Below, one piece after another: positions 5,670 to 20,816 of a stretch of 64,000 bases of DNA. The notes under the pieces were generated by a model. That model was not told the DNA's origin and did no database searches. It was given only the letters and a program-made list of their open reading frames with translations. How positions within the stretch are numbered: position 1 is the stretch's first letter; each line of letters opens with the position of its first letter. This DNA is from an uncultured bacterium. GTDB lineage: Bacteria > Joyebacterota > Joyebacteria > Joyebacterales > Joyebacteraceae. The translations under genes were made by a program, and so were the position numbers. The stretch spans positions 1,372-65,371 of the forward strand of contig CAZLTC010000006.1 of NCBI GenBank assembly GCA_964562405.1. Reading direction: 5' to 3'.

Positions 5670-5738
5670 ATGAATTGGCGGCGGGTTAGCGGTAGTGACC
5701 CGGCGTTCGGCGGATTTGGCACATGCTTGGAGGAAAGT

Positions 5739-8585
5739 ATGCGTGGTCCAGCGCTCCCGGCGCCCGCGTTTGCCGTGTTGGTGGCCGGATTAATGAGCCT
5801 TGCAGCGGTCTCGGCGCTTGCCGCGCCGATGAACGGGGACATTGTGACGATTCGCCAGGCTGATGGGTCGTTCATTGACCTGGCGGTCTGGGGTGATGAG
5901 TTCTACGCGGTCGGGGAGACGCCGGACGGTTACACGGTCGTGCGCGATGACGTGACCGGCGTCTATTGCTACGCGAAGGTCTCGGCGGATGGGAACAAGC
6001 TCGTGTCGACGGGCATCCCTGCGGCGATCGGGCAGGTGCCCGCGGGCCTCTCGAAGCACGTCCGAGTCGACCGGGAGGCGGCTAGCGCGAAGGCCCGCGA
6101 GGTTAGGCAGGCCTTTGAGGCGCGCGAGCTGCAGGATTTGTCTGTTCTGCCCGAACCTCCCGGGCGCTCGCGCGGGACGTCGACGGGCAGCGTGACGGGG
6201 CTCACGCTCATCGTCGACTTCTCAGACGATGTGGGGACGATACCGCCCAGCTCCATCGATGACTTCTGCAACCTCGAGGGGTACACCGGATACAGCAACA
6301 ACGGTTCCGTGCGCGACTACTTCGATGACGTATCCGGAGGACTGCTCGACTATACCAACTATGTTTCGACCGCGTACTACCGTGCTGCGAACCCGAAGTC
6401 CTACTACACCGATCCCTCGGTCTCCTACGGGACCCGGGCCGTCCAGCTGATCAAGGAAGCGTTGAACGCTCTCGATGCGGCGGGGTTCGATTTCAGCGCG
6501 TACGACGCGGACGGGAACGGGAGCATAGACGCTCTGAACTGCTTCTACGCCGGCGCGACCTGGAACAACTGGGCCGAGGGCCTGTGGCCTCACTCAGGCT
6601 GGATGTCGTGGTGCGCGGACGGAGTGTGCACGCAGCGATATCAGATCTCGAACCTGGGAAGCTCTCTCAGGCTCGGCACGTTCGTGCACGAGAACGGCCA
6701 CATGCTGATGGGTTGGCCGGATCTCTATGACTACGACGGGGACTCGGCGGGCGTCGGCCAGTTCTGCGTGATGTGCTCGGTCGGACCGGGTACGAATCCG
6801 ATCGAGCCTTGCGCCTACATGAAGTACACGGCGGGTTGGGCCGACTTGTCGATGCCGACCGGCTACGAGAACGGCCTCTCCGCACCGAGTGCCGGGAACG
6901 TCGTCTACAAATTCGACAAGCCGGGCGCGCCCAACGAATACTACCTCGTTGAGAACCGGCAGAAGACCGGACGGGACAGCGCGATTCCAGACAATGGGCT
7001 TGCCATATGGCACGTCGACGAGAACGGCAGCAATGACTGGCAGCAGCGGACGCCGGACTATCACTACGAAGTCACTCTCGTGCAGGCCGACGGAGACTGG
7101 GATCTCGAGCACTACAACAACAATGGTGACAGCTACGACCTCTACGCGGCCACCGCGGAGACGGAGTGCACTCCCACCACATACCCCAACACCGACTGGT
7201 GGGACGGGAGCGAGTCGGGTTACTACTTCACGAACATCAGCTCGTCGAGCTCCGTGATGACGTTCGACTTCGCAGATGGTCCTCCGTTCAACCCCGAGTT
7301 CACCGCGCCGGTCTTCGCGTGCGAGATCGAGAAGTCGGGCTCGGCGACTTATCTAACCACTATCAGAAACCCCGGTAGTCTGTCCGGCAACGCCGACGTG
7401 GATATCGAGCAGGAGATCCTGCCCGACGGCGTCACGGACACCGACTGGACCGCCACCTACAGGCAGGTCGGCGGGCCGTGGCTCTCCACTCCCTCGTCCT
7501 TTTACCTTGGTCCGGGCGAGGAGATCGATATGGAAGTGAGGTTCGAGGACGGCATGGGTACCATGGAGGGGATGTGCCTGACGACGCTCACCGCGACCGT
7601 CAGCTCCGACCCGACGCTCTCGAACAAGGGATCGTTCGCGACGTTCGTGGACATGCCATGCGTGGCGATCATCGACGACGACAACGGAGCCGCGAACGAG
7701 ACATACCTCGCCACCGCCCTGGAAGATGCTGGATACTGCGCCAGGGTTTGGGACGCCTCGTCCCGCGGCCGGCCCAGCATCGAGGAGCTGTCGTCGTACA
7801 GCGCGGTCTTCTGGACGACGGCCGGAGGTGACGCCTCGTATCTGAGCGCGGACGACGAGCAGAACCTGATGGACTATCTCGACGGGGGTGGCGACCTCTT
7901 CATGTCCAGCATGGGCTACCTCACGGCCAGGACAGCACCCAACGCCTTCACCCAGGACTACCTGCACCTGGACTCGTGGCAGGACGACGTGGTCGCCTTC
8001 TCGGCGGCCGGGGTTGCCGGCGACCAGATATCCGATGGCATGAGTCTCATGCTCCTGGCGGGTCCCGTTTCCTCGAGTGGCTCCGATGCGATGGTGCTGG
8101 ACACACCGGCCGAGGCCATCTTCAGCGCGTCGTCGAACGTGACGGGCCTCAAGGTGGCGGAGGGCGACCACAAGATCGTCTTCCTCTCATTCGCCTTCGA
8201 GAACGTCAAGACCGCCACGGAGGACCCGAACAACCAGAGGACTCTCGTCTCCAGGGTCATGGACTGGTTCATGAACACGACGGGAGTCGATGATCTCACG
8301 ATCGGACGGCTCGCACTCGGGCACAACTACCCGAACCCGTTCAATCCGACCACGAACATCGCCTTCTCGGTGCCTGATGGGACCGAGCCCGTGGCTCTCC
8401 GGGTCTACAGCGTGGACGGCCGTCTGGTGAGGACGCTCGTGGATGGAGCTGTGCCTGCCGGGCCGCATACCGTGCTCTGGGACGGGACGAATGATGCCGG
8501 CGTGAGCGTGGCCTCTGGTGTCTACTTCGCGCGTCTGAGTTCGGCGGGAGAGACGAAGCAGACGAAGATGGCGCTCCTCAAGTAA
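5739..8585 (+). CDS. Secreted M6-like (immune-inhibitor-A-type) zinc metalloprotease with shared C-terminal sorting domain
   Basis: HENGH zinc motif followed by PDLYDYDG as in the M6 family; hydrophobic signal after M at 5739 (GGAGGAAAG upstream). The ORF-track start 5670 sits directly on the predicted -10 element and is unlikely. C-terminus NYPNPFNPTTNIAFSVP...GVYFARL...KMALLK. Confidence 0.75.
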   Translation: MRGPALPAPAFAVLVAGLMSLAAVSALAAPMNGDIVTIRQADGSFIDLAVWGDEFYAVGETPDGYTVVRDDVTGVYCYAKVSADGNKLVSTGIPAAIGQVPAGLSKHVRVDREAASAKAREVRQAFEARELQDLSVLPEPPGRSRGTSTGSVTGLTLIVDFSDDVGTIPPSSIDDFCNLEGYTGYSNNGSVRDYFDDVSGGLLDYTNYVSTAYYRAANPKSYYTDPSVSYGTRAVQLIKEALNALDAAGFDFSAYDADGNGSIDALNCFYAGATWNNWAEGLWPHSGWMSWCADGVCTQRYQISNLGSSLRLGTFVHENGHMLMGWPDLYDYDGDSAGVGQFCVMCSVGPGTNPIEPCAYMKYTAGWADLSMPTGYENGLSAPSAGNVVYKFDKPGAPNEYYLVENRQKTGRDSAIPDNGLAIWHVDENGSNDWQQRTPDYHYEVTLVQADGDWDLEHYNNNGDSYDLYAATAETECTPTTYPNTDWWDGSESGYYFTNISSSSSVMTFDFADGPPFNPEFTAPVFACEIEKSGSATYLTTIRNPGSLSGNADVDIEQEILPDGVTDTDWTATYRQVGGPWLSTPSSFYLGPGEEIDMEVRFEDGMGTMEGMCLTTLTATVSSDPTLSNKGSFATFVDMPCVAIIDDDNGAANETYLATALEDAGYCARVWDASSRGRPSIEELSSYSAVFWTTAGGDASYLSADDEQNLMDYLDGGGDLFMSSMGYLTARTAPNAFTQDYLHLDSWQDDVVAFSAAGVAGDQISDGMSLMLLAGPVSSSGSDAMVLDTPAEAIFSASSNVTGLKVAEGDHKIVFLSFAFENVKTATEDPNNQRTLVSRVMDWFMNTTGVDDLTIGRLALGHNYPNPFNPTTNIAFSVPDGTEPVALRVYSVDGRLVRTLVDGAVPAGPHTVLWDGTNDAGVSVASGVYFARLSSAGETKQTKMALLK

Positions 8586-8640: not shown

Positions 8641-8692
8641 TGTTGCATCGAGACGCCCTGTGCGAAAGCACGGGGCGTCTTCTTCAATGCAA
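8641..8692 (+). terminator. Long GC hairpin (inner stem GAGACGCCCTGTGC / GCACGGGGCGTCT, GAAA loop, outer arms GTTGCAT / ATGCAAC) followed by TCTTCTTC; terminator after the M6-like gene
   Basis: Inverted repeat seen directly; a second smaller hairpin lies at 8594-8612. Confidence 0.5.
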
Positions 8693-8806
8693 CATCGGGA
8701 AACGGTTGTCACACTTCACTCGTCTGGTACGGCACTTGCCCTGCTTGTGCACAATGTGTGTCAGGAACGTCTCACGTCACGAACGGGGGAAGGGAGATAC
8801 GGCGAG

Positions 8807-9901
8807 ATGAGAACATCGATCGTCCTAGTCTGCGCGGCAGTTCTGTGTGTCCCGGCGATCTGCGCCGGCCAGGAGTCCTACATCACGCTCGAGGAGAACA
8901 CCTGGGGCAACGCGCACAAGGAGTTCAACCTTGTGACGATACCCGATTGGATCGACAGCCTGGTGACGACCGGGTCGCCGCTCGTCATGGGGAAGCCAGG
9001 CCGGTCTCTGACGTTCGCGGACGGATCCGAAGAGGCGATACTCGCCGCGCTCCCGGCGTCGGGCCAGCCGGCCGTCCTGCCGGAGGACCTCGGCGACGCT
9101 CTGGTCGACTCGACGTGCGCCCTTCCCGAAGGGCTCCCGGCCAGCAAGAAGGGCAAGCTCAAGAACTCGCTTCTAGGTGAGACGATGGCGCTGGCCCTCA
9201 ACGCGAGGCTCGACCCGGAGCTGATAGACCTGGACGTCTGCTCCGTGATGATGACCGTAAACGTGCTGGCGGGCCCAGATGAGCTCTACGGTACAGAGGA
9301 CGACTCGCTGTGCGCGATGTGCGACACGATGACGATACGCATCCCGGAGGCCGTTCTGTCCGCGCTCCAGGATAGCATGGGCGTGGAACCTACCGTCGGG
9401 AACGTCCTCGAGTTCGCGAACATGGCGCTCGCGGGAGAGGGCACGTACGACGCCACCCTCAAGGGCGTATGGCACGCGGTGAAGAACATCAATCGTGGCT
9501 TCAAGAACTACCGCATGCTTGTCTACTGCGAGGGCGATACGGGCGGAGTGCCGATCGACATCAAGGGCGCGCCCGGCACTTCCGGAGGTCCTGAGGATCG
9601 CGCCGAGTCGATGGCGAGCGCCGTCGCGCTGTCGGCCTCGAGTCCGGTGAGCGACCGGGCGTTCGTCTACTTCACGGTGCCCGAGGCCAGCCGAGTGACG
9701 CTCTCTGTCTACAACGTCGCCGGCCGCGAGGTGGCGACTCTCCTGAACGGTCAGGTCTTCCAGGATCGCGCCACGGTGGAGATGGCCGCCGACAATCGAA
9801 GTGCCCTTCCGTCCGGAGTCTACTTCGTGAGAATGACGGCGGTTGGCGTCGCCAGCGGTGCCGAATACAGACAAACGGCCAAGATGCTGGTGGTTCGCTG
9901 A
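8807..9901 (+). CDS. Hypothetical secreted protein with divergent copy of the shared C-terminal domain
   Basis: Start MRTSIVLVCAAVLCVPAICAG (signal peptide) with GGGGGAAGGGAG upstream. C-terminus ...VYFTVPEASRVTLSVYNVAGREVATLL...GVYFVRM...KMLVVR. The ORF-track 5' extension from 8660 lacks an RBS/signal. Confidence 0.6.
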   Translation: MRTSIVLVCAAVLCVPAICAGQESYITLEENTWGNAHKEFNLVTIPDWIDSLVTTGSPLVMGKPGRSLTFADGSEEAILAALPASGQPAVLPEDLGDALVDSTCALPEGLPASKKGKLKNSLLGETMALALNARLDPELIDLDVCSVMMTVNVLAGPDELYGTEDDSLCAMCDTMTIRIPEAVLSALQDSMGVEPTVGNVLEFANMALAGEGTYDATLKGVWHAVKNINRGFKNYRMLVYCEGDTGGVPIDIKGAPGTSGGPEDRAESMASAVALSASSPVSDRAFVYFTVPEASRVTLSVYNVAGREVATLLNGQVFQDRATVEMAADNRSALPSGVYFVRMTAVGVASGAEYRQTAKMLVVR

Positions 9902-10006: not shown

Positions 10007-10054
10007 TTGACAGCCTGCGACAGTCGTCGCAGAATATGTGTGACAGTTGTCGCG
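10007..10054 (+). promoter_or_regulatory. Promoter -35 (TTGACA) plus two GACAGTYGTCGC dyad repeats: candidate BlaI-family operator upstream of blaI-blaR1-like genes
   Basis: GCGACAGTCGTCGC (10017-10030, perfect palindrome) and GACAGTTGTCGC (10042-10053), 11 nt apart, between TTGACA and the ATG at 10077. Confidence 0.35.
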
Positions 10055-10076
10055 GACCCCCGAACAAGGAGTCGCC

Positions 10077-10538
10077 ATGAAGTCGCTTCCCAGCCTCTCG
10101 CGGTTCGAGCTTCAGTGCCTGCGGAAGCTCTGGAACCGCAAGGAGGGGACGGTCAGGGACATTCACGGAGACCTCGCCGACCCCCCGAGCTACTCGACCG
10201 TCAGGAAGATCATGGACCGCCTGGAGGAGAAGGGCGCAATAGAGCGCGTCCGCAAGGAAGGGAAGGCGTGGGTATACCGCTCCAGAGTCTCCCCACGGGA
10301 GATGCTCCGCAAAGAGATAAGGCAGTTTCTCGATGTGGCGTTCGATGGCTCGGCGGCTCCGCTCGTCGCGCAGCTGGCGCGTATGCAGGAGCTCACCGTC
10401 GAGGACTTGAGAGAGGTCGAGAGGGTCCTGGCTGGTGACAGAGCCGCCGCTTCCGAGACTGACTCCCACGACGAGAACGGTGTTCGCTCGCGCAGCGAAG
10501 GTCCGTCCACCGACGACAGGCACGAGGAACAGGTCTGA
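10077..10538 (+). CDS. BlaI/MecI/CopY-family winged-helix transcriptional repressor
   Basis: MKSLPSLSRFELQCLRKLWNRKEGTVRDIH...YSTVRKIMDRLEEKGAI...WVYRSRVS matches the penicillinase-repressor family. AAGGAG RBS before ATG 10077. Confidence 0.75.
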   Translation: MKSLPSLSRFELQCLRKLWNRKEGTVRDIHGDLADPPSYSTVRKIMDRLEEKGAIERVRKEGKAWVYRSRVSPREMLRKEIRQFLDVAFDGSAAPLVAQLARMQELTVEDLREVERVLAGDRAAASETDSHDENGVRSRSEGPSTDDRHEEQV

Positions 10539-10584
10539 CATATCGCGCGTGGTGGAAGGACCCCCGCGCGTCGGAGGTACGACG

Positions 10585-12099
10585 GTGAACGAGGTGCTCG
10601 AGTACGCGACCGGTTACTGGATGGCGGTTGCGTCACATCTGTGGCAGACGACCATGCTTATACTCTTCCTCTCGGGTCTCGCCCTGATCTTGAAGCGGGC
10701 GCCGGCGCGCGTGCTCAACGCGCTCTGGTGGGTCGCGCTGGCGAAGCTCGTCGTGCCCGTATCCATCGTCGCGCCCGCCGTCAGCCGCGCGCTGGGTCCA
10801 GTGCTCGATCGACTCGAACAGGGCTCGGCCCCGATGGAGGCCGTGACCGTCTGGCTGCACAGGGCCGGCCCCGTCCTGGATCCCATCGCGTCCGTCGCTC
10901 GTCCCACCCCGGGACTGCCCGGCGCGCTGGGTCTCGCACTCCTAGTCGCCTGGGCTGTCGGCGCCTCCTGGTTCGCCGTCGTCTGGCTGCGCTCGAGAGA
11001 CTGGAGGGTTGTCGGAGAGTCGCGGCCGATCGACGGTCTGTCGACCGCGGCAGCGCGCGGGGCGTTGGATGCGCTGCAAGGCACGCGCATACCGGCCGGC
11101 GCGGTGCTGGTCACGCGCGAGCCGCTCACGCCCTCGGTCGTCGGTATCTTCCGCCGCAGGATCATCCTCTCGGTGGACGTCATCGAGAGACTGGAGCCGC
11201 ATGAACTGAGGGCCATCCTGCTTCACGAGGACGCACACCGGCGCCGGTTCGAACCGCTGCAGGTGCTCGTCCAGAGGGTGGCCGTGGCCGCGTTCTACTT
11301 CTTCCCGCCGCTCTGGCCGGTGCTCCGGCGGCTGCGGGAGACCAGCGAGATGGCGTGCGACGAGGCCGCCGTTCGTCAGGGCGTGCGCCCGGAGCGTTAC
11401 GCGACCGCCCTGGCAAGGACTCTGAACATTGGACTGGAGCCTCTCGGGCTGGCCGTCGGCCTCGCGCGAGGGACTCCCACGCTCACGCGCAGCAGGTTTG
11501 AGCGGCTGCGGAACGAAGGGAGGTTCACACCGATGAGATGGCATTGGGCATGTCTCGTGGTGGCCGTGCTCGCTGCTGTTGCGACCGCCGTGCTTTCGGC
11601 CATTCCGACGATCGCAGGCGAGCCGGAGGGTGGGGCTACCTCTGTCAAGACCGAGGTCACGACCGACGAGAACGGCGACAGGGTCATGGAAGTGACCATA
11701 GAAGGAGAAGAGGAGGAAGAGGCCACGTACACGGTGACCCTTCTTCACAGCGAGCCCCCGGAATACCCGGAGGACGCAAAGACGGACGGCGTCGGCGGCA
11801 GGGTCGTTCTCGAACTCATGATCAATTCCGACGGGACAGTCGGCGAGGTCACCGCCGTCCAGGAAGTCGAGGACTACCCGTCGCTCACCGAGGCAGCGAC
11901 AGAGGCGGCCAGCCAGTGGACGTTCGAGATCCAGGGCGAGGTCGACGGTGAGCAGACGCTCGAGGTCATCGTTCCCATCGAGTTCAAGATGGATGGCGAG
12001 AAGACCAAGACGATCAAGATCACCGTCCCGGACGCGACCGAGGCGCCGGAGGCCCCCGGCGAGCCGGAGGAGCCCGACGAGGCGGACGCGCCCGAATAG
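10585..12099 (+). CDS. BlaR1-like M56 family membrane metallopeptidase/sensor fused to a TonB C-terminal-like domain
   Basis: Multi-TM N-terminus, HEDAH (HExxH) zinc motif. C-terminal EPPEYPEDAKTDGVGGRVVLELMINSDGTVGEV resembles the TonB_C fold, preceded by a Glu/Pro-rich linker. GTG 10585 with GGAGG 7 nt upstream; the ORF-track start 10435 overlaps blaI. Confidence 0.7.
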   Translation: MNEVLEYATGYWMAVASHLWQTTMLILFLSGLALILKRAPARVLNALWWVALAKLVVPVSIVAPAVSRALGPVLDRLEQGSAPMEAVTVWLHRAGPVLDPIASVARPTPGLPGALGLALLVAWAVGASWFAVVWLRSRDWRVVGESRPIDGLSTAAARGALDALQGTRIPAGAVLVTREPLTPSVVGIFRRRIILSVDVIERLEPHELRAILLHEDAHRRRFEPLQVLVQRVAVAAFYFFPPLWPVLRRLRETSEMACDEAAVRQGVRPERYATALARTLNIGLEPLGLAVGLARGTPTLTRSRFERLRNEGRFTPMRWHWACLVVAVLAAVATAVLSAIPTIAGEPEGGATSVKTEVTTDENGDRVMEVTIEGEEEEEATYTVTLLHSEPPEYPEDAKTDGVGGRVVLELMINSDGTVGEVTAVQEVEDYPSLTEAATEAASQWTFEIQGEVDGEQTLEVIVPIEFKMDGEKTKTIKITVPDATEAPEAPGEPEEPDEADAPE

Positions 12100-12183: not shown

Positions 12184-13689
12184 TTGTGTTATGCTCCTTG
12201 TACGCAGTCGAGGTGGGTACAGCATCCAGGGGAGTGGACTCTGGGCAACTGGTACACCACGGAGGGGATATACAACTCCCTCCCGATACCGCTCCAGAAT
12301 GCCTGTGTGGCCTGGCGCGGGTGGCGCATATACCGGGAGCGTTTCGGCCGCAGGTACGAGGAGCTTGCCGAGTTCCTCGAGCGGTCCGAGACCGCGTCGG
12401 TCGACACGCACAGAGAGTACCAGGAGACGCGCCTGCGCGAGCTCATACTCCACGCGTATGAGAATGTGCCTTACTACCACGACGTCATGGACGCCCGCGG
12501 CCTCAAGCCGTCGGACGTCGTGTCGATAGAGGACCTGGCCAAACTCCCGATCCTGACGAAGAAGGACGTTCGCGAGGCAGGCGACAGGCTCGTCTCGCGG
12601 ACCGTCGACCCCAGGAAGCTCCGCGTGGCATGGACGTCGGCAACGAGCGAGACGCCTCTGCCGGTGAAGTGGGACCACTCCGTCGCCCTCGTGAACCATG
12701 CCAGCTACATGCGAGTGCGGCGGTGGGCAGGCGTTCCGTTCGGTCATCGTTACGCGACCATGCAGGGGACGCCGGTCGTACCCATCACGCAGCGCAAGCC
12801 TCCTTTCTGGCGTTCGAACCCTCTGTGGCACCAGGTGCTCTTCTCTCAGCTGCACCTGAGCGACGAGAGCCTGCCTCACTACGTGAGGAAGATGCGTGAG
12901 GCCGGTGTGGAGGATCTGGAGACGTACGCATCGTGCGCCTACGTGATGGCCAGGTATCTGGAAGATCGAGACGAGTACCTGCCGCTGAAGGCGGTCATCA
13001 CGACCGGCGAGCCGCTCTTCCCGGAGGAACGCGCTCTCATGGAGGAGAGGTTCGCGGCCCCGGTCTTCGACGCGTACGGACAAGCGGAACGCGTCATCTT
13101 CTCCTGCGACTGCGAGAAGCACGAGGGACATCACGTGTTTCCGGAGTACGGCATTACCGAGTTCGTCGACGGCGATGGTGACGTCCTGCCACGAGGCGAG
13201 TGCGGGTTCATGATCGGGACCGGACTCCACAACTTCGCGATGCCGCTCATCCGGTACGCGTGCGGAGACGTGGGGGCTCCGTCGGACCGGACCTGTTCGT
13301 GCGGGCGGACGCTGCCCATGCTCTCGACCCTCACCAGCAGGGCCGGTGACATTCTGGTGACGCCGGACGGCCGCATGGTCCCGCCCATCATGGTCACCTG
13401 GATCGTGAAGTTCCTGGAGGGCGTCCGCGACTGGCAGGTCGTCCAGGAGGCCGTGACCGAACTCCGCGTGCTGGTAGTCCGGGATGCGCCCGTGACGAAG
13501 GCCGAGTTCGAGGGCCTGAGCGGCTATCTCTCCAGGAGGCTCGGCCCGGAGGTCCACATCGAGATCGAGCCGGTGCCGGAGATACCACGCGTGGGCCGGG
13601 GCAAGACCCGCCACGTGATCTCAAAGGTGCCGCTGGTCTGGGGCGTTCCCAACCGGTCGAGCTGCGGCGCCGTTCCCGACTCTGAGTGA
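12184..13689 (+). CDS. Phenylacetate-CoA ligase / coenzyme F390 synthetase-like (CapK-like) adenylate-forming enzyme with degenerate P-loop
   Basis: N-terminal LPIPLQNACVAWRGWRIYRERFG and YENVPYYHDVMDARGLKPSDVVSIEDLAKLPILTKKDVRE are typical of the PaaK/F390-synthetase family. The position of SSGTTGKP is occupied by TSATSETP. TTG start is uncertain. Confidence 0.6.
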   Translation: MCYAPCTQSRWVQHPGEWTLGNWYTTEGIYNSLPIPLQNACVAWRGWRIYRERFGRRYEELAEFLERSETASVDTHREYQETRLRELILHAYENVPYYHDVMDARGLKPSDVVSIEDLAKLPILTKKDVREAGDRLVSRTVDPRKLRVAWTSATSETPLPVKWDHSVALVNHASYMRVRRWAGVPFGHRYATMQGTPVVPITQRKPPFWRSNPLWHQVLFSQLHLSDESLPHYVRKMREAGVEDLETYASCAYVMARYLEDRDEYLPLKAVITTGEPLFPEERALMEERFAAPVFDAYGQAERVIFSCDCEKHEGHHVFPEYGITEFVDGDGDVLPRGECGFMIGTGLHNFAMPLIRYACGDVGAPSDRTCSCGRTLPMLSTLTSRAGDILVTPDGRMVPPIMVTWIVKFLEGVRDWQVVQEAVTELRVLVVRDAPVTKAEFEGLSGYLSRRLGPEVHIEIEPVPEIPRVGRGKTRHVISKVPLVWGVPNRSSCGAVPDSE

Positions 13690-13765: not shown

Positions 13766-14695
13766 GTGCGCGAACTCACCCACCTGAAGGTACTCGGGAT
13801 CAGATACCGGAACGCCCGTCCGGCGCCCGACGACGAGAGAGGCCTGGACGCCCTCCTGGCCTCCGGGGCATACGAGTCCGCGGGAGTTCCCTTCGACATC
13901 AGCGAGCCACGGTTGTCGGAGGCCGCTCAGTCAGCGCCCGAGAACGGGGAGCCCGGCGGCGACGAGGCGGCTCGTACCCTCGATGCGAAGCAGACGGGCG
14001 CGCTGTGCGGGCTCATCGCCGCTGATGTGGCGTCGGCCGTGAGTGCCGGCTCCGGCGTGCTCGTGGTCGGCGGGAACTGCTCTCACGGTCCCGGCGTCGT
14101 CGGGGGATTGCTGCAAGCATACGGGGCGGAGACGCGCGTCGGTCTCGTCTGGTTCGACGCGCACGGCGACTTCAACACGCCCCGGACGAGCCGGTCGGGC
14201 AGCCTCGGCGGCATGCCCGTCGCGGTCCTCGCCGGCCTGGCGTACCCTGACTGGAGGATGCGAGCCGGCGTCGCGCGGCCGCTCCCCGCCGAGAGCGTCC
14301 TGCTCGTCGGCTGCCGCGACCTCGACGAGGGGGAGGGGCGTCTCCTGGAGGAGTGCGGCGTGCGCGTGGCCGGAATGGGTGATGCGGGTGCGATGGTCGA
14401 CCTGGTGGAGCGCTCGGACGTGATCTGTCTCCACGTTGACATCGACGTGCTCGACGCTGCCCTTGTCCCGGGGCACAGGTCGGCAGTCGCCGAAGGTCCG
14501 TTGGTGGCCGGGTTGCTCGCCGCCATGGAGACGGTTCTCGCGACCGGGAAGGTCGCGGCTATCGCTGTCGTGTCCACATCCTCGGCCGGTGAACTTGGAC
14601 ACACTACCGTGGAGTCGGCGGCCGATGTCATCCGCGGCGCCCTCCGCGCGTGGCGATCGCACGGGTTGCCGGAAGCGGCCGGAGGCCGATCATGA
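13766..14695 (+). CDS. Arginase/agmatinase/formiminoglutamase-fold (ureohydrolase) protein with atypical first metal motif
   Basis: VVGGNCSHG (in place of GGDHS), WFDAHGDFNTP (DAHxD), HVDIDVLDAALVPG (DxDxxD) in the canonical order and spacing of the arginase family. GTG start. Confidence 0.65.
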   Translation: MRELTHLKVLGIRYRNARPAPDDERGLDALLASGAYESAGVPFDISEPRLSEAAQSAPENGEPGGDEAARTLDAKQTGALCGLIAADVASAVSAGSGVLVVGGNCSHGPGVVGGLLQAYGAETRVGLVWFDAHGDFNTPRTSRSGSLGGMPVAVLAGLAYPDWRMRAGVARPLPAESVLLVGCRDLDEGEGRLLEECGVRVAGMGDAGAMVDLVERSDVICLHVDIDVLDAALVPGHRSAVAEGPLVAGLLAAMETVLATGKVAAIAVVSTSSAGELGHTTVESAADVIRGALRAWRSHGLPEAAGGRS

Positions 14696-15855
14696 ACAGG
14701 AGACGCATGGCGCGTCTCGCGGTGACCGCGGTTGCCGCGTTGGCCATTCTGCTTCTCTCATCGCGCATTCACACGGCCTACCTCGCCGCGCTGGTGCTAG
14801 CTGAGTCCGCCAGCCCGGAGGTTGACGGGCCGATCGCGACGCGATTGCCCGACCCAGTGGTCGAGGGCGTGACGTTCGCAGGTCCCGGCAAGACGATGGT
14901 CGCCGATGTCTACAGACCGGAGACCGGCGGCAAGCATCCGGGCATAGTGCTCAGCCACGGCGTGGCCGCCAGGGGCAAGGACGACCCGCGCCTGGTGAAC
15001 TTCGCCGACGCGCTGGCGCGAGCGGGGTACGTTGCTCTCGTTCCCCAGTTCGTAAACATGAAGGAGTTCCGCGTCCGGCCCTCCGACATCGACGAGCTGG
15101 TGGCCTCCTATGAGTATCTTGAGTCCCGCCCGGACGTTGACCCCACTCGCGTCGGCCTGTTCGGCTTCAGCTACGCGGGCGGGCTGTCCGTGCTCGCGGC
15201 CGCCGACCCACGCATCGCCGACCGGATCCGCTTCTGCTTCCTGCTGGGCGGCTACTACGACCTCGTGAGCGTGGTCACGTACATGACGACAGGGATGTAC
15301 GAGCGGGACGGAACGTGGGTACACCTCGAGCCCAGGAACACCGGGCGCTGGGCGTTCCTCCTGAACAGCTCGGATCTCATCGAGGACGTCGCCGACCGTG
15401 AGACGATCGCCGCGCTCGCGCGCCGGAAGCTGGACGGTCCCGACTCCGACGTTTCTGACCTGGTGCGGGGGCTCGGGCCGGAGGGGGCGAGCGTGTACTC
15501 TCTCATGGTCAACACGGATCCGGAGCAGACCCGCCGTCTTGTCGAGGGTCTGAGTCCACGGGTGCGGCAGTACTTCGACGAGCTGACGCTTGCCGGACGC
15601 ATCGACGGCCTGCGCTGCCGTCTCATCATCGGGCACGGCCGTGACGACGACCTCATTCCGTATACTGAGAGCCTGAAGCTCGCGAGGAACGTCCCCGAGG
15701 GCACGGCCGTCCATCTGGCCATTCTTGAGTCGTTCCATCACGTCGACTTCAGGTTGGGTGGAGTGGGCGGGCCGCGCGGGCTTCTCGCCTCGCTTGCCGA
15801 GATAGGCAGGCTCTACTCGATCACGTACGATCTGCTTGCGCAGGGGCTCGTCTGA
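14692..15855 (+). CDS. Alpha/beta-hydrolase (dienelactone hydrolase / S9-like esterase-peptidase fold), probably secreted or membrane anchored
   Basis: N-terminal hydrophobic segment, GFSYAGG (GxSxG nucleophile elbow), later Asp/His candidates. ATG 14692 overlaps the previous stop (ATGA) with GGAGG upstream. Confidence 0.6.
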   Translation: MNRRRMARLAVTAVAALAILLLSSRIHTAYLAALVLAESASPEVDGPIATRLPDPVVEGVTFAGPGKTMVADVYRPETGGKHPGIVLSHGVAARGKDDPRLVNFADALARAGYVALVPQFVNMKEFRVRPSDIDELVASYEYLESRPDVDPTRVGLFGFSYAGGLSVLAAADPRIADRIRFCFLLGGYYDLVSVVTYMTTGMYERDGTWVHLEPRNTGRWAFLLNSSDLIEDVADRETIAALARRKLDGPDSDVSDLVRGLGPEGASVYSLMVNTDPEQTRRLVEGLSPRVRQYFDELTLAGRIDGLRCRLIIGHGRDDDLIPYTESLKLARNVPEGTAVHLAILESFHHVDFRLGGVGGPRGLLASLAEIGRLYSITYDLLAQGLV

Positions 15856-15870
15856 TGCACGGCTGGGTCG

Positions 15871-18360
15871 TTAGCGCAGGAGCACGAGCTTCGAGGAGGA
15901 GGCGCCGCAATCCGTCTCGAGCCTTGCGAAGTAGACCCCCGACGCCACGGGTCTGCCGCCGCCGTCGCGACCGTCCCACGCCACGGCAGACGCGCCGGCC
16001 GCGAACTCGCCCCCGGCGAGCGTGCGGACCAACCGCCCGGCGGCGTCGTAGATCGATACGCTGCCTCGCGAGCGCGAGGGGAGCAGAAGGGATATCGAGG
16101 TTGAAGGTCCGAACGGGTTGGGGTGCGTGCCGGAGATGCGCGGAGCGACCGGCAGGCCAGCCTCGGCCTCGTCATCCGGGACGTCTGACTGTGTCCCGTA
16201 GGCGAGCACGATGAGTCCCATCCCGGGCAGCTGCACCACGGCCGACTGTGCATACCCGTCCTCCGCGACCGCCTCCGAAGAGATGACGCCGGGGTTCTCC
16301 ATGCCGTTTCCGTCGTAGGCGGCGGCCTGGCTGTTGAGCGCCTCGTACCAGTCGCCGGCCTGCGGGAGGCCGATGCGGTAGCTTCCGTAGTCGGAGTCAC
16401 CGAAGTTCGCGAGGACGACCAGCACGTCTCCGGCTCCGCTCCAGCGCTGCCACGCGATGACGTTGCCGCTCTCGTTGAGGTGGAACACTTCATGTCCCGC
16501 GTCGGCGCGCAGCGCGTCGTTCCCCGTCCGCAGATGAATGAGGTCGCGGTAGTAGTTGAAGATGGGCGCATAGGTCGTCTTCTTGGACCAGTCGATGCGG
16601 TTCTCGTAGTCGGTCCCGAAGTCCGTGTCCTCGAGCCACTCGGTTCCCATCAACATGGCGGGGATGCCCGGAGCAGTCATGACGATACCCTGCGCGAGCT
16701 TGCTCCTGCCCTTGGCCCACTCGTCGTCATGGGGCGCCGTAGCGTCTATCGATTTGACGATGCGCTGGCCGCCGCTGGAGGGCCAGGCCTCGTCGTGCAG
16801 CTCGACGTAGTTCGTGACGTAGCCGTTCTCCAGATACTGGCCACCCCCGTTCACGATGTCCCTGATCTTCCATACCTCCGGGTCTCCATAGGCGGCGTCA
16901 AAGATCTCCTCGCGCAGGCGGTCCGTGAACACATCGTAGTACTGCGAGTCAAAGCCGGCTCCTCCCAGGCTGGTCGGGCGCGTCACCCAGGAGTTGTCCG
17001 GGAGCTGTTCGGCGATGGCGATCTTGTCGACCCACCTTCGGTCCATCTCGTCGTTCATGCGCTGCATGAGGCTCCAGCCCGAGGCCTCCTGAGGGTAGAT
17101 GTTCATGTAGCCGGTGGCGTCCATCCGGAACCCGTCGACCTTGAACTCCTCGAGCCAATAGAGAGCGCTGTCGGCAAGGTAGTCACGCACCGGCTCGTCG
17201 TCGAAATCGGGTTGACTGCCCCACGGTGTCTCGACCGCGGGGTCGTCGAAGTAGGCTTGCGTCCCGTCGTACTCCCAAAGGAAGTTGTCGCTGTAGGAGA
17301 AGTGGTTCCAGACGATGTCGAGGATGACGGCGATGCCGTAGGAGTGCAGGGTATCGATCATCTCCTTGAGCTCATCCGGCGTGCCGTACGCCCACTCCGG
17401 TGCCCACTGGGAGATCGGATTGTATCCGGCCGAGTAGTCCCAGGGGAACTCCGTGATCGGGTTCAGCATGACCGCGTTGACGCCCAGCTCGGAGAGGTGA
17501 GAAGCTCTCGCCGCTACCTCGGGGTAGCCGGCCGGGAAGGGCGCCGTGCCGTACGGGTCGTTCCTTCCGGAGAACGTGCCTACATGGAGCTGGTAAACGA
17601 CCATCTTCTCGAAGTCGGGTGTGTCGAAGTCGTCCATCTGCCAGTCGTACCTGAAACGATCCTCGATGTGGGTGTTGAGGTTGTCCCCGGAGTTCAGCGA
17701 CTTCCCGCGCGCGTCGGGCTTCCAGATCGAACCGTTGAAGTAGTACTTGTACATCTGGCGATTCGAGGCCGAGGGCACGTACGCGGCGAAGTACTCGCCG
17801 TCCTTCGTCATCGGGCTGGAGGTGCCCCAGCTGTTGAACTGGCCGCGGACGTAAGCAGTCGACGCACCGGGCGCCCACACCCGGAAGACCGCGCCGCCAT
17901 CGACCAGCGTCGAGCCGAGCGGGGCGTGCTCAAGGGTGTCAAAGTCGAGCACGAACCCGCCGTCGGTCGGAACACCGTCGGTCATCCCGCCGGCGCTCAG
18001 GTAGTCGACGTCCGCGCCGTCGGTCAGCTCGATGTAGTAGGAGAGGGTCGTGGACGACGTCGATGGGATCTGCGCCGTCCATACATCAAACGGCCCGCGT
18101 GCGGCTGTCTCAACGGCTCCGATCCAGGCGACGTCGCCGTCTTCGACATGTACGCGGGCCGAAGCTATGTCATCGTGGTAGGTCTGGAAGAGGATCTCGA
18201 AGCTCTGGCCGCTCATGGGGCACAGCGGCCTTCTGTCCTGCCACCAGACGTGAGATATGCCGTTCCACTCTATGTTGCCGTCGGGGCCTGCGGCCCCCGC
18301 AGTCATGCAAAGGGCGGCCACCAGGGCCGCTGCAGCTCCAGTGAGCCTGAGCGACTTCAT
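15871..18360 (-). CDS. Secreted GH13 alpha-amylase-family glycoside hydrolase with shared C-terminal sorting domain
   Basis: Signal MKSLRLTGAAAALVAALCMTAGAAG. GH13 motifs AVILDIVWNHFS, GFRMDATGYM, YVELHDE. C-terminus HPNPFGPSTSISLLLP...IYDAAGRLVRTL...GVYFARL...KLVLLR. Confidence 0.8.
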   Translation of the reverse strand: MKSLRLTGAAAALVAALCMTAGAAGPDGNIEWNGISHVWWQDRRPLCPMSGQSFEILFQTYHDDIASARVHVEDGDVAWIGAVETAARGPFDVWTAQIPSTSSTTLSYYIELTDGADVDYLSAGGMTDGVPTDGGFVLDFDTLEHAPLGSTLVDGGAVFRVWAPGASTAYVRGQFNSWGTSSPMTKDGEYFAAYVPSASNRQMYKYYFNGSIWKPDARGKSLNSGDNLNTHIEDRFRYDWQMDDFDTPDFEKMVVYQLHVGTFSGRNDPYGTAPFPAGYPEVAARASHLSELGVNAVMLNPITEFPWDYSAGYNPISQWAPEWAYGTPDELKEMIDTLHSYGIAVILDIVWNHFSYSDNFLWEYDGTQAYFDDPAVETPWGSQPDFDDEPVRDYLADSALYWLEEFKVDGFRMDATGYMNIYPQEASGWSLMQRMNDEMDRRWVDKIAIAEQLPDNSWVTRPTSLGGAGFDSQYYDVFTDRLREEIFDAAYGDPEVWKIRDIVNGGGQYLENGYVTNYVELHDEAWPSSGGQRIVKSIDATAPHDDEWAKGRSKLAQGIVMTAPGIPAMLMGTEWLEDTDFGTDYENRIDWSKKTTYAPIFNYYRDLIHLRTGNDALRADAGHEVFHLNESGNVIAWQRWSGAGDVLVVLANFGDSDYGSYRIGLPQAGDWYEALNSQAAAYDGNGMENPGVISSEAVAEDGYAQSAVVQLPGMGLIVLAYGTQSDVPDDEAEAGLPVAPRISGTHPNPFGPSTSISLLLPSRSRGSVSIYDAAGRLVRTLAGGEFAAGASAVAWDGRDGGGRPVASGVYFARLETDCGASSSKLVLLR

Positions 18361-18755: not shown

Positions 18756-20067
18756 TTACCTCAGCAGGACGAGCTTCACAGGGTCGGCACCCGACCCGGC
18801 AGCGAGCCGCGCGAAGTACACACCGGAGGGCAAGGGGCGTCCAACCGAGTCCCGGCCGTCCCATTGGGCGGCCGCGAGGGGGGACGCCTCGAGGCGCCGC
18901 AGCAGTCTCCCCGAGATGTCGTACACGTTGATGGCGTGCGCTTCACTTGAGGGCGTGGCGGGCGCCAGGAAGATCGCCTCGCGGAACGGATTCGGCCAGC
19001 ACCGGAGGACCGGGGGCGCGACGGCCACAGGGGCGTCCGCCGAGTCTCCGGGTATGTCCGTCGGAGGATCCAGCAGGGCGAAGTGGACCTGCATGTTGCT
19101 CTGCGTCGTGCCGCGCGGCCAGGCGAGAGCTACGATGCCGCTCGAGAGCGTCACTGGGTGCGGCTCCGTGTCCCAGCCCGCGTAGCTCAGCCAGTTCTCC
19201 TCGCTCGCCCAGGCGTAGCCGTCGTCGGAGACGCGCGAGTACAGATCGTAGGGGTCGCCACCGGTCGACGTTGCGTAATAGAGCCCGTACCGCCCGTCAG
19301 CCAGCTCGATGGGGAAGGAGTCGTGCGAGTTCTGCGTGTAGGTGACGCGGTTCTCTGCGCTCCAGTTCAGCCTGTCGGTCGACGTCTTCGTGAAGATGTC
19401 TATCTGGTAGTACCAGATACCGGTCTTGCGCTGATAGCTCAAGACGTACGTCCCATCCGAGTGGCGCATGATGCGGTTCAGTGAACCGGTGCTGGCGTTC
19501 GTCTTGTCGTGGTCCCATGTCGTCCCGTCCTCCGAGTGGGCCACGTGGCCCCCGTTCGAGAGCAAGTCGTAGCTCATGGTCAGGGATCCGTTGTTCTCGG
19601 AGAAGACGGTGGGGTTTACAAGGTCCTCGGTCGTCCACCCGAGGTCCACGATGCCTCGACGCGTCCAGGTCGTGCCGTCGGGGGAGTCGGCCATGTGTAT
19701 GCGGTAGCCGCCCGTCTCATCCGACAAGTAGTAGAGCTGGTACGTCCCGCCGGGCAGCTGAATGACCGATGGATGCCTCTCGTTCCCAGACGTGGCGACG
19801 ATAGCGCGAGGTGGGGACCACACCGCCCCGTCGGACGACACCGTCAGCATCAGATCACCGTTTTCATAGTTCGAGTCCAGCCTCTCATACACGATCATGA
19901 GGGAGCCATCGTCGCACTCGAGAAGCGAGGGCATGTAGTTCAGGTACCCGTCGTCGGTCACGGGCACGATGTCATAGGAGCACGCGGCCGATGCAATGAG
20001 CGCCAGTGCGCAGCATGCACTTGCCGCGGCCATGTGCGGACGGTGAACCGGCGAACGTGCAGACATG
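18756..20067 (-). CDS. BNR/Asp-box repeat (sialidase-like beta-propeller) protein with shared C-terminal sorting domain
   Basis: Four Asp-box repeats (SSDGAVWS, SPDGTTWT, SEDGTTWD, SDDGYAWA). Signal MSARSPVHRPHMAAASACCALALIASAACS. C-terminus WPNPFREAIFLAP...VYDISGRLLRRL...GVYFARL...KLVLLR. The ORF-track extension to 20735 is antisense to yajC and rejected. Confidence 0.7.
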
Positions 20068-20114
20068 AGTACCCCCCGGGGTCCTGTCCTGGTTTGCGCT
20101 GCGGGACGCTCACT

Positions 20115-20126
20115 ACCATTATAGCA
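20115..20126 (-). promoter_or_regulatory. Extended -10 element aTGcTATAAT (minus strand) upstream of the BNR-CTD gene
   Basis: Perfect TATAAT with TGn, ~50 nt upstream of minus-strand ATG 20067; no good -35. Confidence 0.3.
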
Positions 20127-20145
20127 TACTGTGGGCGCGGCGCTC

Positions 20146-20174
20146 TTGACTCGCCGGACGCTCCCTGATAACAT
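20146..20174 (+). promoter_or_regulatory. Candidate promoter TTGACT-N17-TAACAT for the small ORF / yajC-def-fmt operon
   Basis: Read directly; divergent from the BNR-gene promoter 20-30 nt away. Confidence 0.35.
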
Positions 20175-20267
20175 CTCCCGGTTGAACGGTAACAACGTCC
20201 AGGAGGCCATCTGGCGTTCAAGAAGGCGAAGCGCAAGGACGAGAAGCCCGGTTCGGGGATCATACTC

Positions 20268-20471
20268 GTGAAGGACGGCGTCAAGAGGGAGGTGACGTTC
20301 GAGGAGCTTGCGCTCTCGAACACGCTCTCCCTGGAGGCGCTCGTCCGCGTGCTGGCGAGGACGGGCGAGATCGACCCCAAGGAGCTGCTCGAGGAGATGG
20401 AGAAGGTGAAGGCCGAGCGGTTCCGTGACGGGTCCGAACTCCCGAACGCGGGTCCTGACACCGCTCACTAG
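20268..20471 (+). CDS. Small hypothetical protein upstream of yajC (start unclear; frame open back to a CTG at 20211 behind AGGAGG)
   Basis: Open frame with charged helical sequence (EELALSNTLSLEALVRVLARTGEIDPKELLEEMEKVKAERF). It sits 12 nt upstream of yajC and downstream of a predicted promoter. No ATG start is available. Confidence 0.35.
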   Translation: MKDGVKREVTFEELALSNTLSLEALVRVLARTGEIDPKELLEEMEKVKAERFRDGSELPNAGPDTAH

Positions 20472-20483
20472 GAGGCGTGGCTG

Positions 20484-20816
20484 ATGCTGTTTCTGACAAT
20501 GCTCTTCCCGGACGTCGCACACGCGATGGGCACGCCCGGCGCTGGTGGCGAAGGCGGCGGTGGCAACACGTCGTTCTTCTTCATGCTCATAGCGATCTTC
20601 GCTATCTTCTACTTTCTGATGATCCGTCCCGAGTCCAAGCGGCGCAAGGAACGGCAGCAGATGATCGACTCGCTCAAGCGGCACGACAAGATAGTGACGA
20701 TCGGCGGTCTTTACGGCGAGATTCTCGACGTCCACGACGACAGGGTAGTCGCCAAGATCTCGGATGGTGTGAAGGTCGAGATCGCGAAGTCTGCCGTGAC
20801 CGGCGTGAGGGAGTAG
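20484..20816 (+). CDS. yajC: Preprotein translocase subunit YajC
   Basis: Single TM followed by MIRPESKRRKERQQMIDSLKRHDKIVTIGGLYGEI, the YajC signature. GGAGG RBS. Confidence 0.85.
   Translation: MLFLTMLFPDVAHAMGTPGAGGEGGGGNTSFFFMLIAIFAIFYFLMIRPESKRRKERQQMIDSLKRHDKIVTIGGLYGEILDVHDDRVVAKISDGVKVEIAKSAVTGVRE

What the first reader, a model, noticed from the sequence alone, without database searches (positions are those of the whole stretch)
13766..14695. Arginase-fold protein whose first metal-binding motif reads GGNCS instead of GGDHS
The three signature blocks of the binuclear-Mn ureohydrolases are present in the right order and spacing: xGGxxS, DAHxD, DxDxxD. In the first block the usual Asp-His (His is a MnA ligand) is replaced by Asn-Cys (VVGGNCSHG), with a His two residues later. 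This predicts either altered metal specificity or a non-canonical activity (not a plain arginase/agmatinase). It fits with its placement next to an adenylate-forming enzyme.
Basis: partly seen in the sequence, partly recalled or inferred. Interest (0 to 1): 0.5.

Follow-up and report, generated by a model that had tools for sequence, protein, structure and literature searches.

The report
Cysteine-ligand arginase-like enzyme, uncharacterised clade
This gene encodes an arginase-type metal enzyme in which a cysteine replaces one of the metal-binding histidines; the change is real and conserved across a large, untested bacterial and archaeal clade, and one distantly related enzyme with the same change is already known to work as an arginase.

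Summary

The Cys is not an error. It is invariant in 116 of 116 close homologues and is the rule in 80 species genomes and in the best 150 cluster representatives.

It is one part of a clade-wide switch: H101 to C, H141 to G, S230 to H and E277 to S. The other five metal ligands and the residues that hold the alpha-amino-acid end of the substrate are retained.

A precedent exists. Zymomonas mobilis arginase (PDB 6KSY; motifs GGDCL and HIDLDVLDP) binds metal 1 through the Cys sulfur and is a Mn-dependent arginase. That protein is only about 15% identical to this one, and no member of this clade has been studied.

Most likely this is a two-metal amidinohydrolase acting on L-arginine or a close analogue. 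The loss of H141 and E277 leaves a different substrate possible.

The neighbouring adenylate-forming gene is found only in close relatives, so it gives little functional support.

Interest is moderate.

The parts
13766..14695 (+). Gene for the 309-aa Cys-type arginase-fold protein (GTG start, TGA stop)
14069..14086 (+). Block 1, G102-G103-N104-C105-S106-H107. C105 (TGC, nt 14078-14080) takes the place of metal-A ligand His101 of canonical arginase. H107 is conserved only in the inner subfamily.
   Evidence: C105 is 116/116 and H107 is 114/116.
14156..14170 (+). Block 2, D131-A-H133-G-D135, equivalent to D124/H126/D128 (bridging Asp, metal-B His, metal-A Asp)
   Evidence: Invariant in 116/116 and in 82/82 clade members.
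14174..14209 (+). Substrate loop N137-T-P-R-T-S-R-S144-G-S-L-G148. N137 and S144 correspond to N130 and S137, which bind the alpha-carboxylate. G148 replaces His141.
   Evidence: Position 148 is G or A in 81/82 clade members and H in all canonical sequences.
14324..14335 (+). D187-E-G-E190, equivalent to D183 and E186, which bind the alpha-amino group
   Evidence: D187 is 81/82 and E190 is 81/82.
14432..14455 (+). Block 3, H223-V-D225-I-D227-V-L-D230. D225 and D227 correspond to D232 and D234. H223 replaces the Ser/Thr of the canonical signature.
   Evidence: H223 is 82/82 in the clade and S in all canonical sequences. The same HxDxDxLD occurs in zmARG.
14474..14476 (+). H237, in the loop over the active site (corresponds to T244). 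Conserved in most of the clade. Candidate stand-in for the lost His141 (inference only).
   Evidence: 114/116 in the inner family. Variable in some outer groups.
14573..14575 (+). S270, which replaces the guanidinium-binding Glu277
   Evidence: S/G/A in the clade, E in all canonical sequences. E stands opposite this position in formiminoglutamase, arginase, agmatinase and guanidine hydrolase.
13940..13981 (+). 14-residue insertion (ENGEPGGDEAARTL, residues 59-72), modelled with low confidence and specific to this lineage
   Evidence: Shared only with P0001. pLDDT is below 50 at residues 60-63.
12184..13689 (+). Upstream neighbour: CapK/PaaK-like adenylate-forming enzyme (the real start may be near 12307)
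   Evidence: NCBIfam PaaK-type hits, all below their cut-offs. PF27533 CapK_C in orthologous loci. PDB phenylacetate-CoA ligase 2y4o E 2.5e-22.
14692..15855 (+). Downstream neighbour: alpha/beta hydrolase (dienelactone-hydrolase-like) with a hydrophobic N-terminus. Its ATG overlaps the arginase-like stop codon (ATGA).
   Evidence: Pfam DLH E 1.6e-6. Overlap read from the sequence. Same arrangement in L001.
10047..12099 (+). BlaI-like repressor and BlaR1-like M56 protein with a TonB_C domain, co-oriented upstream. Possibly the same transcription unit.
   Evidence: Pfam hits. Promoter-like site at 10007-10035 and no convincing + strand terminator before 15855. Syntenic in L001, L003 and L008.

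Best explanation
The gene encodes a cytoplasmic metallohydrolase of the arginase lineage, with no signal peptide. It belongs to a large, experimentally unstudied sister clade of the bacterial arginases. The two-metal site is kept, but its metal-A half is rebuilt. D131, H133, D135, D225 and D227 are the canonical ligands. The sixth ligand, His101, is replaced by the invariant Cys105. By analogy with the Z. mobilis arginase crystal structure, Cys105 binds metal A directly through its thiolate. The invariant His223 replaces the canonical Ser230 on the same strand as D225 and D227, and sits next to Cys105 in the second shell. A metal-bridged hydroxide would attack the guanidino (amidino) carbon of a free L-alpha-amino acid shaped like arginine, most simply L-arginine itself, giving ornithine and urea.

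Shown: the fold, the residue equivalences, their conservation, and the correlated switch.

Inferred: Cys105 as a ligand, the identity of the metal, the substrate, and a role for H237 and a loop Glu as stand-ins for the lost His141 and Glu277.
For: - Metal ligands. The D124, H126, D128, D232 and D234 equivalents are invariant in 82/82 clade members, and C105 is present in 74/82, with Asp in the other 8.
- Substrate end. The N130, S137, D183 and E186 equivalents, which in arginase bind the alpha-carboxylate and alpha-amino groups, are conserved at 80/82 or better.
- Precedent. zmARG has GGDCL and HIDLDVLDP. Its Cys92 S-gamma, Asp116, Asp120, Asp212 and a bridging water bind metal 1. It is a Mn-dependent arginase with kcat 302 s-1 and is 95% inhibited by ABH. 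phmmer aligns query 97-231 to 6ksy 84-218, which by the offsets pairs C105 with Cys92 and H223 with His210.
- The Cys/His pair recurs in a lineage only about 15% identical to the query, which argues that the two residues are structurally coupled.
Against: - His141 (Gly), Glu277 (Ser) and Asp274 (Ala) are lost. Glu277 is present in every solved ureohydrolase aligned here. Arginine may therefore be a poor substrate or the wrong one.
- The protein scores far below the rocF equivalog cut-off (91 against 228 bits).
- No arginine, ornithine or urea metabolism genes recur next to clade members.
- Some clade members are domains of large cell-surface proteins, which does not suggest amino-acid catabolism for those members.
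- No model coordinates were available, so the geometry around Cys105 was not inspected.
Confidence: 0.5

Rival explanations
1. Same fold and same two-metal chemistry, but a different substrate. The clade would hydrolyse a neutral or less basic arginine analogue or another C-N bond of an alpha-amino acid, for example L-canavanine, N-omega-hydroxy- or N-omega-methyl-arginine, citrulline or another ureido or amidino amino acid. This would be a new activity within the ureohydrolases, possibly with a softer metal (Zn, Fe, Co or Ni) favoured by the thiolate.
For: The guanidinium-binding Glu277, the proton-shuttle His141 and the second-shell Asp274 are lost across the clade, and R164, K262, H223 and H237 are gained. 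All equivalog scores are far below their cut-offs. zmARG crystals contained Zn, not Mn. Some members are fused to GNAT acetyltransferases, which would fit acetylation of a released amine. The clade is diverse, with secreted multidomain forms.
Against: The only characterised Cys-type enzyme is a good Mn-dependent arginase. The residues that bind the alpha-amino-acid end of arginine are fully retained. No genomic context points to any particular alternative substrate. The GNAT domain gave no specific match.
Confidence: 0.3
2. Ligand migration or a redox switch. His223 (replacing Ser230) would take over as the metal-A ligand, and Cys105 would be a second-shell partner or a redox- or thiol-sensitive regulatory residue rather than a ligand.
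For: Positions 223, 225 and 227 alternate on one beta-strand, so H223 faces the metal site (inference from the model's strand E219-225). H223 is invariant (82/82) even where position 105 is Asp. From my own recollection of the literature, not verified here, Ser230 is the hydrogen-bond partner of His101 in rat arginase.
Against: In the zmARG crystal structure the listed ligands of metal 1 are Cys92 S-gamma, Asp116, Asp120, Asp212 and water. His210 is not among them. Cys and Asp, the two residues seen at position 105, are both good metal ligands.
Confidence: 0.1
3. In this organism the enzyme would be one step of a three-gene pathway with the CapK/PaaK-like adenylating enzyme and the membrane-anchored alpha/beta hydrolase, for example making or trimming an acyl-amino-acid or an envelope-associated compound, under BlaI/BlaR1-like control.
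For: The order CapK-like, arginase-like, DLH-like is kept in window, L001, L002, L003 and L008, down to 50% identity of the arginase-like protein. The arginase-like stop and the hydrolase start overlap as ATGA. No terminator-like site lies between the genes. An alpha/beta hydrolase also follows the gene in two Chloroflexota-type contigs.
Against: All five loci are from one lineage and share wider synteny (FlgD_ig protein, BlaI, BlaR1 and the amylase gene), so the conservation may be simple inheritance. No CapK-like gene lies next to any of the other roughly 75 clade members. The downstream census found DLH in only 5 of 61 loci.
Confidence: 0.12
4. Artefact or dead enzyme: a sequencing or assembly error, or a catalytically inactive arginase-fold pseudoenzyme like the T. 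brucei arginase-like protein.
For: One canonical ligand and two catalytic residues are missing.
Against: The Cys is invariant across hundreds of independent assemblies. TGC is two base changes from any His codon. Five metal ligands and the substrate-binding residues are under strict conservation, unlike metal-free pseudo-arginases.
Confidence: 0.03

Closest known systems
Zymomonas mobilis ZM4 arginase zmARG (ZMO0432, PDB 6KSY; Hwangbo et al. 2019, PMC6988801)
   Same: The His of block 1 is replaced by Cys (GGDCL against GGNCS). Block 3 starts with His instead of Ser (HIDLDVLDP against HVDIDVLDA). The other five ligands are kept, and the fold is the arginase fold.
Canonical bacterial arginases (RocF; Thermus thermophilus 2EF4/2EIV, Bacillus caldovelox 1CEV)
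   Different: H101 is C, H141 is G, S230 is H, H228 is Y (C in the query), D274 is A and E277 is S. The rocF model scores 91 bits against a cut-off of 228.
N-omega-hydroxy-L-arginine amidinohydrolase DcsB (PDB 6LUG)
   Different: It is no closer than ordinary arginases. Its residue states were not compared. The D-cycloserine gene cluster is absent here.
Peptide arginases (OspR, Pfam PF12640)
   Same: Ureohydrolase superfamily with a two-metal site.

Membership tests
Ureohydrolase / arginase superfamily (Pfam PF00491) | Score above the Pfam gathering threshold | tested here: met
   88.6 bits against a cut-off of 22, E 6.2e-25
Ureohydrolase / arginase superfamily (Pfam PF00491) | Three-layer alpha/beta arginase fold | tested here: met
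Ureohydrolase / arginase superfamily (Pfam PF00491) | Signature 2, D-[AS]-H-x-D | tested here: met
   LVWFDAHGD matches the PROSITE-type pattern, which I recalled from memory. Invariant in the family.
Ureohydrolase / arginase superfamily (Pfam PF00491) | Signature 1, G-G-x-H (metal-A His) | tested here: not met
   G-G-N-C. The pattern fails only at H to C.
Ureohydrolase / arginase superfamily (Pfam PF00491) | Signature 3, [ST]-x-D-x-D-x3-[PAQ]... | tested here: not met
   H-V-D-I-D. The pattern fails only at the first position, S/T to H. Both Asp ligands are present.
Arginase sensu stricto (EC 3.5.3.1; NCBIfam TIGR01229 rocF) | Equivalog HMM score at or above the cut-off | tested here: not met
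   91.4 bits against 227.6
Arginase sensu stricto (EC 3.5.3.1; NCBIfam TIGR01229 rocF) | Residues binding the alpha-carboxylate and alpha-amino groups of L-Arg (N130, S137, D183, E186) | tested here: met
   N137, S144, D187 and E190 are conserved at 80/82 or better
Arginase sensu stricto (EC 3.5.3.1; NCBIfam TIGR01229 rocF) | Guanidinium and proton-shuttle residues Glu277 and His141 | tested here: not met
   S270 and G148
Arginase sensu stricto (EC 3.5.3.1; NCBIfam TIGR01229 rocF) | Hydrolysis of L-arginine to ornithine and urea | not testable with these tools
   Needs an enzyme assay
Cys-type arginase as in zmARG (PDB 6KSY) | Cys in place of the block-1 His, and His at the start of block 3 | tested here: met
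   C105 and H223. The alignment offsets pair them with Cys92 and His210.
Cys-type arginase as in zmARG (PDB 6KSY) | Close sequence or structural relatedness (same subfamily) | tested here: not met
Cys-type arginase as in zmARG (PDB 6KSY) | Cys S-gamma coordinates metal 1 | not testable with these tools
   The prediction tool returns no coordinates. Needs a structure or a metal-aware model.
Agmatinase (TIGR01230) and formimidoylglutamase (TIGR01227) | Equivalog HMM score at or above the cut-off | tested here: not met
   26.8 against 174.3 bits, and 48.5 against 229.2 bits
Peptide arginase (PF12640) | [quoted passage not shown] | tested here: not met

The most novel reading that the evidence does not exclude
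The Cys/Gly/His/Ser clade may not be made of arginases at all. It would then be a distinct, widespread ureohydrolase family with a thiolate-containing metal site, possibly using Zn, Fe, Co or Ni, that hydrolyses another amidino, ureido or amide substrate. The clade holds at least about 150 clusters at 50% identity, across Chloroflexota, Gemmatimonadota, Acidobacteriota, Bathyarchaeia and Firmicutes, and includes domains of secreted surface proteins. On this reading, the window's gene works together with the translationally coupled hydrolase and the CapK-like ligase.
Probability: 0.25. Interest if true: 0.6.

Novelty: new variant of a known kind. Interest (0 to 1): 0.4.

Why it matters
Arginase is a textbook two-manganese enzyme whose six ligands are treated as invariant. 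This analysis shows that a Cys-for-His version is not a one-off from Zymomonas. It is the rule in a large, phylogenetically broad sister clade, and it always travels with three other active-site changes. That gives a natural experiment on how ligand identity tunes metal choice and substrate handling in this fold. It also marks hundreds of 'arginase family protein' annotations whose activity is unverified. For this window specifically, the gene is an ordinary member of that clade.

Tried and rejected
- Alignment shift that would bring His107 onto the ligand position: rejected. HMMER pairwise alignments and two MAFFT alignments agree, and H107 is absent from the outer groups.
- Sequencing error: rejected.
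- My own 'ligand migration' idea, with His223 replacing His101 as the ligand: downgraded after reading the zmARG structure description, where the Cys is the ligand and the His is not listed.
- Family-wide operon partner: searched four ways and none found. The four were look-ups of encoding contigs, BLAST clustering of neighbours in 88 loci, a Pfam census of 61 downstream ORFs and a Pfam census of 140 flanking ORFs. Only lineage-local neighbours turned up: amidase, EamA and TspO in Roseiflexaceae, and CapK and DLH in the Eisenbacteria-like group.
- GNAT fusion as a clue to the substrate: the GNAT domain has no specific NCBIfam or PDB match.
- Peptide arginases: a different Pfam family.
- Plasmid search: two weak partial hits, uninformative.
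- Literature searches for other Cys-ligand ureohydrolases or for studies of this clade: only the zmARG paper was found.
- The zmARG sequence could not be obtained, so its His141 and Glu277 equivalents are unread.
- The afdb50 fold library was unavailable.
- Model coordinates are not exposed, so the metal site could not be inspected.

Full report
**The observation.**
Window 13766-14695 (+) is a 309-aa ORF with a GTG start. Homologues cover 97-100% of its length, so the start is sound. It matches Pfam Arginase PF00491 at 88.6 bits and E 6e-25. Among NCBIfam models it is closest to rocF arginase, but far below every equivalog cut-off: rocF 91 against 228 bits, hutG 48 against 229, agmatinase 27 against 174.

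They are GGNCSH (residues 102-107), DAHGD (131-135) and HVDIDVLD (223-230). phmmer alignments to the Thermus thermophilus and Bacillus caldovelox arginases put 'vvggncshg' under 'vlggdhsls' and 'vlggdhsia'. MAFFT alignments with human arginase 1 agree. So N104 pairs with D100, C105 with H101 and H107 with L103. The alignment does not shift His107 onto the ligand position.

**Conservation.**
A search of 5.8 billion proteins gave 852 hits. The best 120 are full-length relatives of 42-92% identity, mostly from Chloroflexota, Bipolaricaulota and Ca. Eisenbacteria, and are named 'arginase family protein' where they are named at all. Among 116 of them:
- C105 is invariant and H107 is present in 114.
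- D131, H133, D135, D225 and D227 are invariant.
- Position 104 is Asp in 87 and Asn in 27.

The Cys codon TGC is two substitutions away from any His codon.

**A wider pattern.**
I aligned the arginase-family gene from 87 fetched loci (80 from species-representative genomes, 7 from the contig look-ups) and from the window, together with human arginase 1. This showed a perfectly correlated four-way switch.
- Canonical sequences carry H101, H141, S230 and E277.
- About 80 others carry C (D in one Thermomicrobiales subgroup), G or A, H, and S, G or A at those positions. They come from Chloroflexota, Gemmatimonadota, Acidobacteriota, Gammaproteobacteria, Clostridia, Planctomycetota and Bathyarchaeia.

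In a neighbour-joining tree these sequences form one clade apart from the canonical arginases. The Asp variants are nested inside it. The query's Eisenbacteria-like group is nested among the Chloroflexota and Bipolaricaulota sequences.

Further residues define the clade: R164, Y221 (Cys in the query, against His228 in canonical arginases), P245 and K262. In the query's subfamily Asp274 is replaced by Ala. His107 is conserved only in the query's inner GG[DN]CxH subfamily.

An exhaustive profile search of 1.84 billion cluster representatives found 218 clusters at E <= 1e-30. Of the best 150, only one has the canonical H/H/S/E state. Nearly all the others that cover position 105 have Cys there.

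What is retained matters as much. All five other metal ligands are kept. So are the equivalents of N130, S137, D183 and E186, which in arginase hold the alpha-carboxylate and alpha-amino groups of L-arginine (the role assignment is established knowledge of rat and human arginase I).

**Structure.**

**Precedent.**
Full-text searching turned up Hwangbo et al. 2019 (PMC6988801), on Zymomonas mobilis arginase zmARG (PDB 6KSY). Its motifs are 89-GGDCL-93, 116-DSHPD-120 and 210-HIDLDVLDP-218.
- In the crystal, metal 1 (modelled as Zn) is five-coordinate: Cys92 S-gamma, Asp116, Asp120, Asp212 and a bridging water.
- Metal 2 has the usual Asp, Asp, Asp and His ligands.
- The enzyme hydrolyses L-arginine only with Mn2+, with Km 6.8 mM and kcat 302 s-1, and ABH inhibits it by about 95%.

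6ksy is a weak hit of the query (E 8.5e-6, query 97-231 against chain 84-218). By the offsets this pairs C105 with Cys92, H223 with His210, D225 with Asp212 and D227 with Asp214.

**Genomic context.**
In the window the gene follows a CapK/PaaK-like adenylating enzyme after a 76-nt gap. Its stop codon overlaps the start of a dienelactone-hydrolase-like alpha/beta hydrolase, which has a hydrophobic N-terminus, in an ATGA overlap. A BlaI-like and BlaR1/TonB_C-like gene pair lies upstream. There is a promoter-like site at 10007-10035 and no convincing terminator before 15855.

This arrangement is kept in L001, L002, L003 (Ca. Eisenbacteria, GCA_043815815) and L008. Those loci share wider synteny, so the conservation may be simple inheritance. 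Elsewhere the neighbours differ. BLAST clustering of neighbours and Pfam censuses of 61 downstream and 140 flanking ORFs found no recurrent partner. They found no arginine, ornithine or urea genes either.

**Interpretation.**
The best-supported reading (confidence about 0.5) is a two-metal amidinohydrolase of the arginase lineage. Cys105 would be the metal-A ligand and His223 its second-shell neighbour. The substrate would be L-arginine or a close alpha-amino-acid analogue.

The main rival (about 0.3) keeps the chemistry but changes the substrate or the metal. Its grounds are the loss of Glu277, His141 and Asp274. Glu277 is present in every ureohydrolase I aligned.

My own idea that His223 takes over as the ligand is not supported by the zmARG structure (about 0.1). 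A lineage-specific pathway with the two neighbouring genes is possible (about 0.12). Sequencing error or a dead enzyme is effectively excluded.

**Novelty and score.**
The Cys-for-His arginase site is published for one enzyme. The clade to which this gene belongs is large and broad, carries additional unreported active-site changes, and has no characterised member. I class it as a new variant of a known kind, of moderate interest (0.4). The gene in this window is an ordinary member of that clade.

Noticed in passing
P0125, P0134, P0140, P0124, P0139, P0154, P0178 (representatives): Cys-type arginase-like domains (C/G/H/S state) occur inside very large proteins of 850-2177 aa. These carry S-layer homology, dockerin, cadherin-like, esterase Ig-like, metallo-beta-lactamase or Cu-amine-oxidase N-terminal domains, or a TAT signal. 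That points to secreted or cell-surface forms, which is hard to square with plain cytoplasmic arginine catabolism.
   Followed up: partly
P0020, P0032, P0043, P0087: Some close homologues are fused at the C-terminus to a GNAT acetyltransferase domain (PF13302/PF00583). The GNAT part has no specific NCBIfam or PDB match.
   Followed up: partly
L039, L040, L042, L043, L044, L046, L048, L052 (Thermomicrobiales/Sphaerobacterales): A subgroup nested inside the Cys clade has Asp instead of Cys at position 105 (G-D-D-T-A). It also has Ala at 148 and Ala or Ser at 237, and still has His223.
   Followed up: partly
window 10047-12099 (+): A BlaI-like repressor gene is followed by, and may overlap in the ORF listing, a BlaR1-like M56 peptidase gene whose product ends in a TonB_C domain rather than a penicillin-binding sensor domain. 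A sigma-70-like promoter site lies at 10007-10035.
   Followed up: no
window 5670-8585 (+), 8660-9901 (+), 15871-18360 (-), 18756-20735 (-): Four large predicted secreted proteins end in the same kind of C-terminal domain (...SGVYFARL...K/R; PF13860 FlgD_ig in the orthologous loci). They are a metalloprotease-like protein, an unknown protein, a GH13 amylase with CBM48 and a BNR/sialidase-like protein. The shared ending looks like a sorting or anchoring tag of this lineage.
   Followed up: no
window 14692-14695: The stop codon of the arginase-like gene and the start codon of the alpha/beta hydrolase gene overlap as ATGA, which suggests translational coupling. The same overlap occurs in L001.
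   Followed up: yes
window 13940-13981 (residues 59-72): A 14-residue acidic and Gly-rich insertion is found only in the query and its 92%-identical relative P0001. It is modelled with low confidence.
   Followed up: partly
L004 8911-9684 and L005 9077-9736: In two Chloroflexota-type contigs the Cys-type gene is also followed directly by an alpha/beta hydrolase, but of a different family (PF00756 Esterase / Abhydrolase_2) from the DLH-like one in the window.
   Followed up: partly
P0269: There is an apparently intermediate group: GGDCL, Gly at the His141 position and His at the start of block 3. It still has the canonical PGV..P.PGGLT loop and a '..VNP' ending, with Ala in place of Glu277. It is closer to T. 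thermophilus arginase (E 1.8e-37) than the query is.
   Followed up: no
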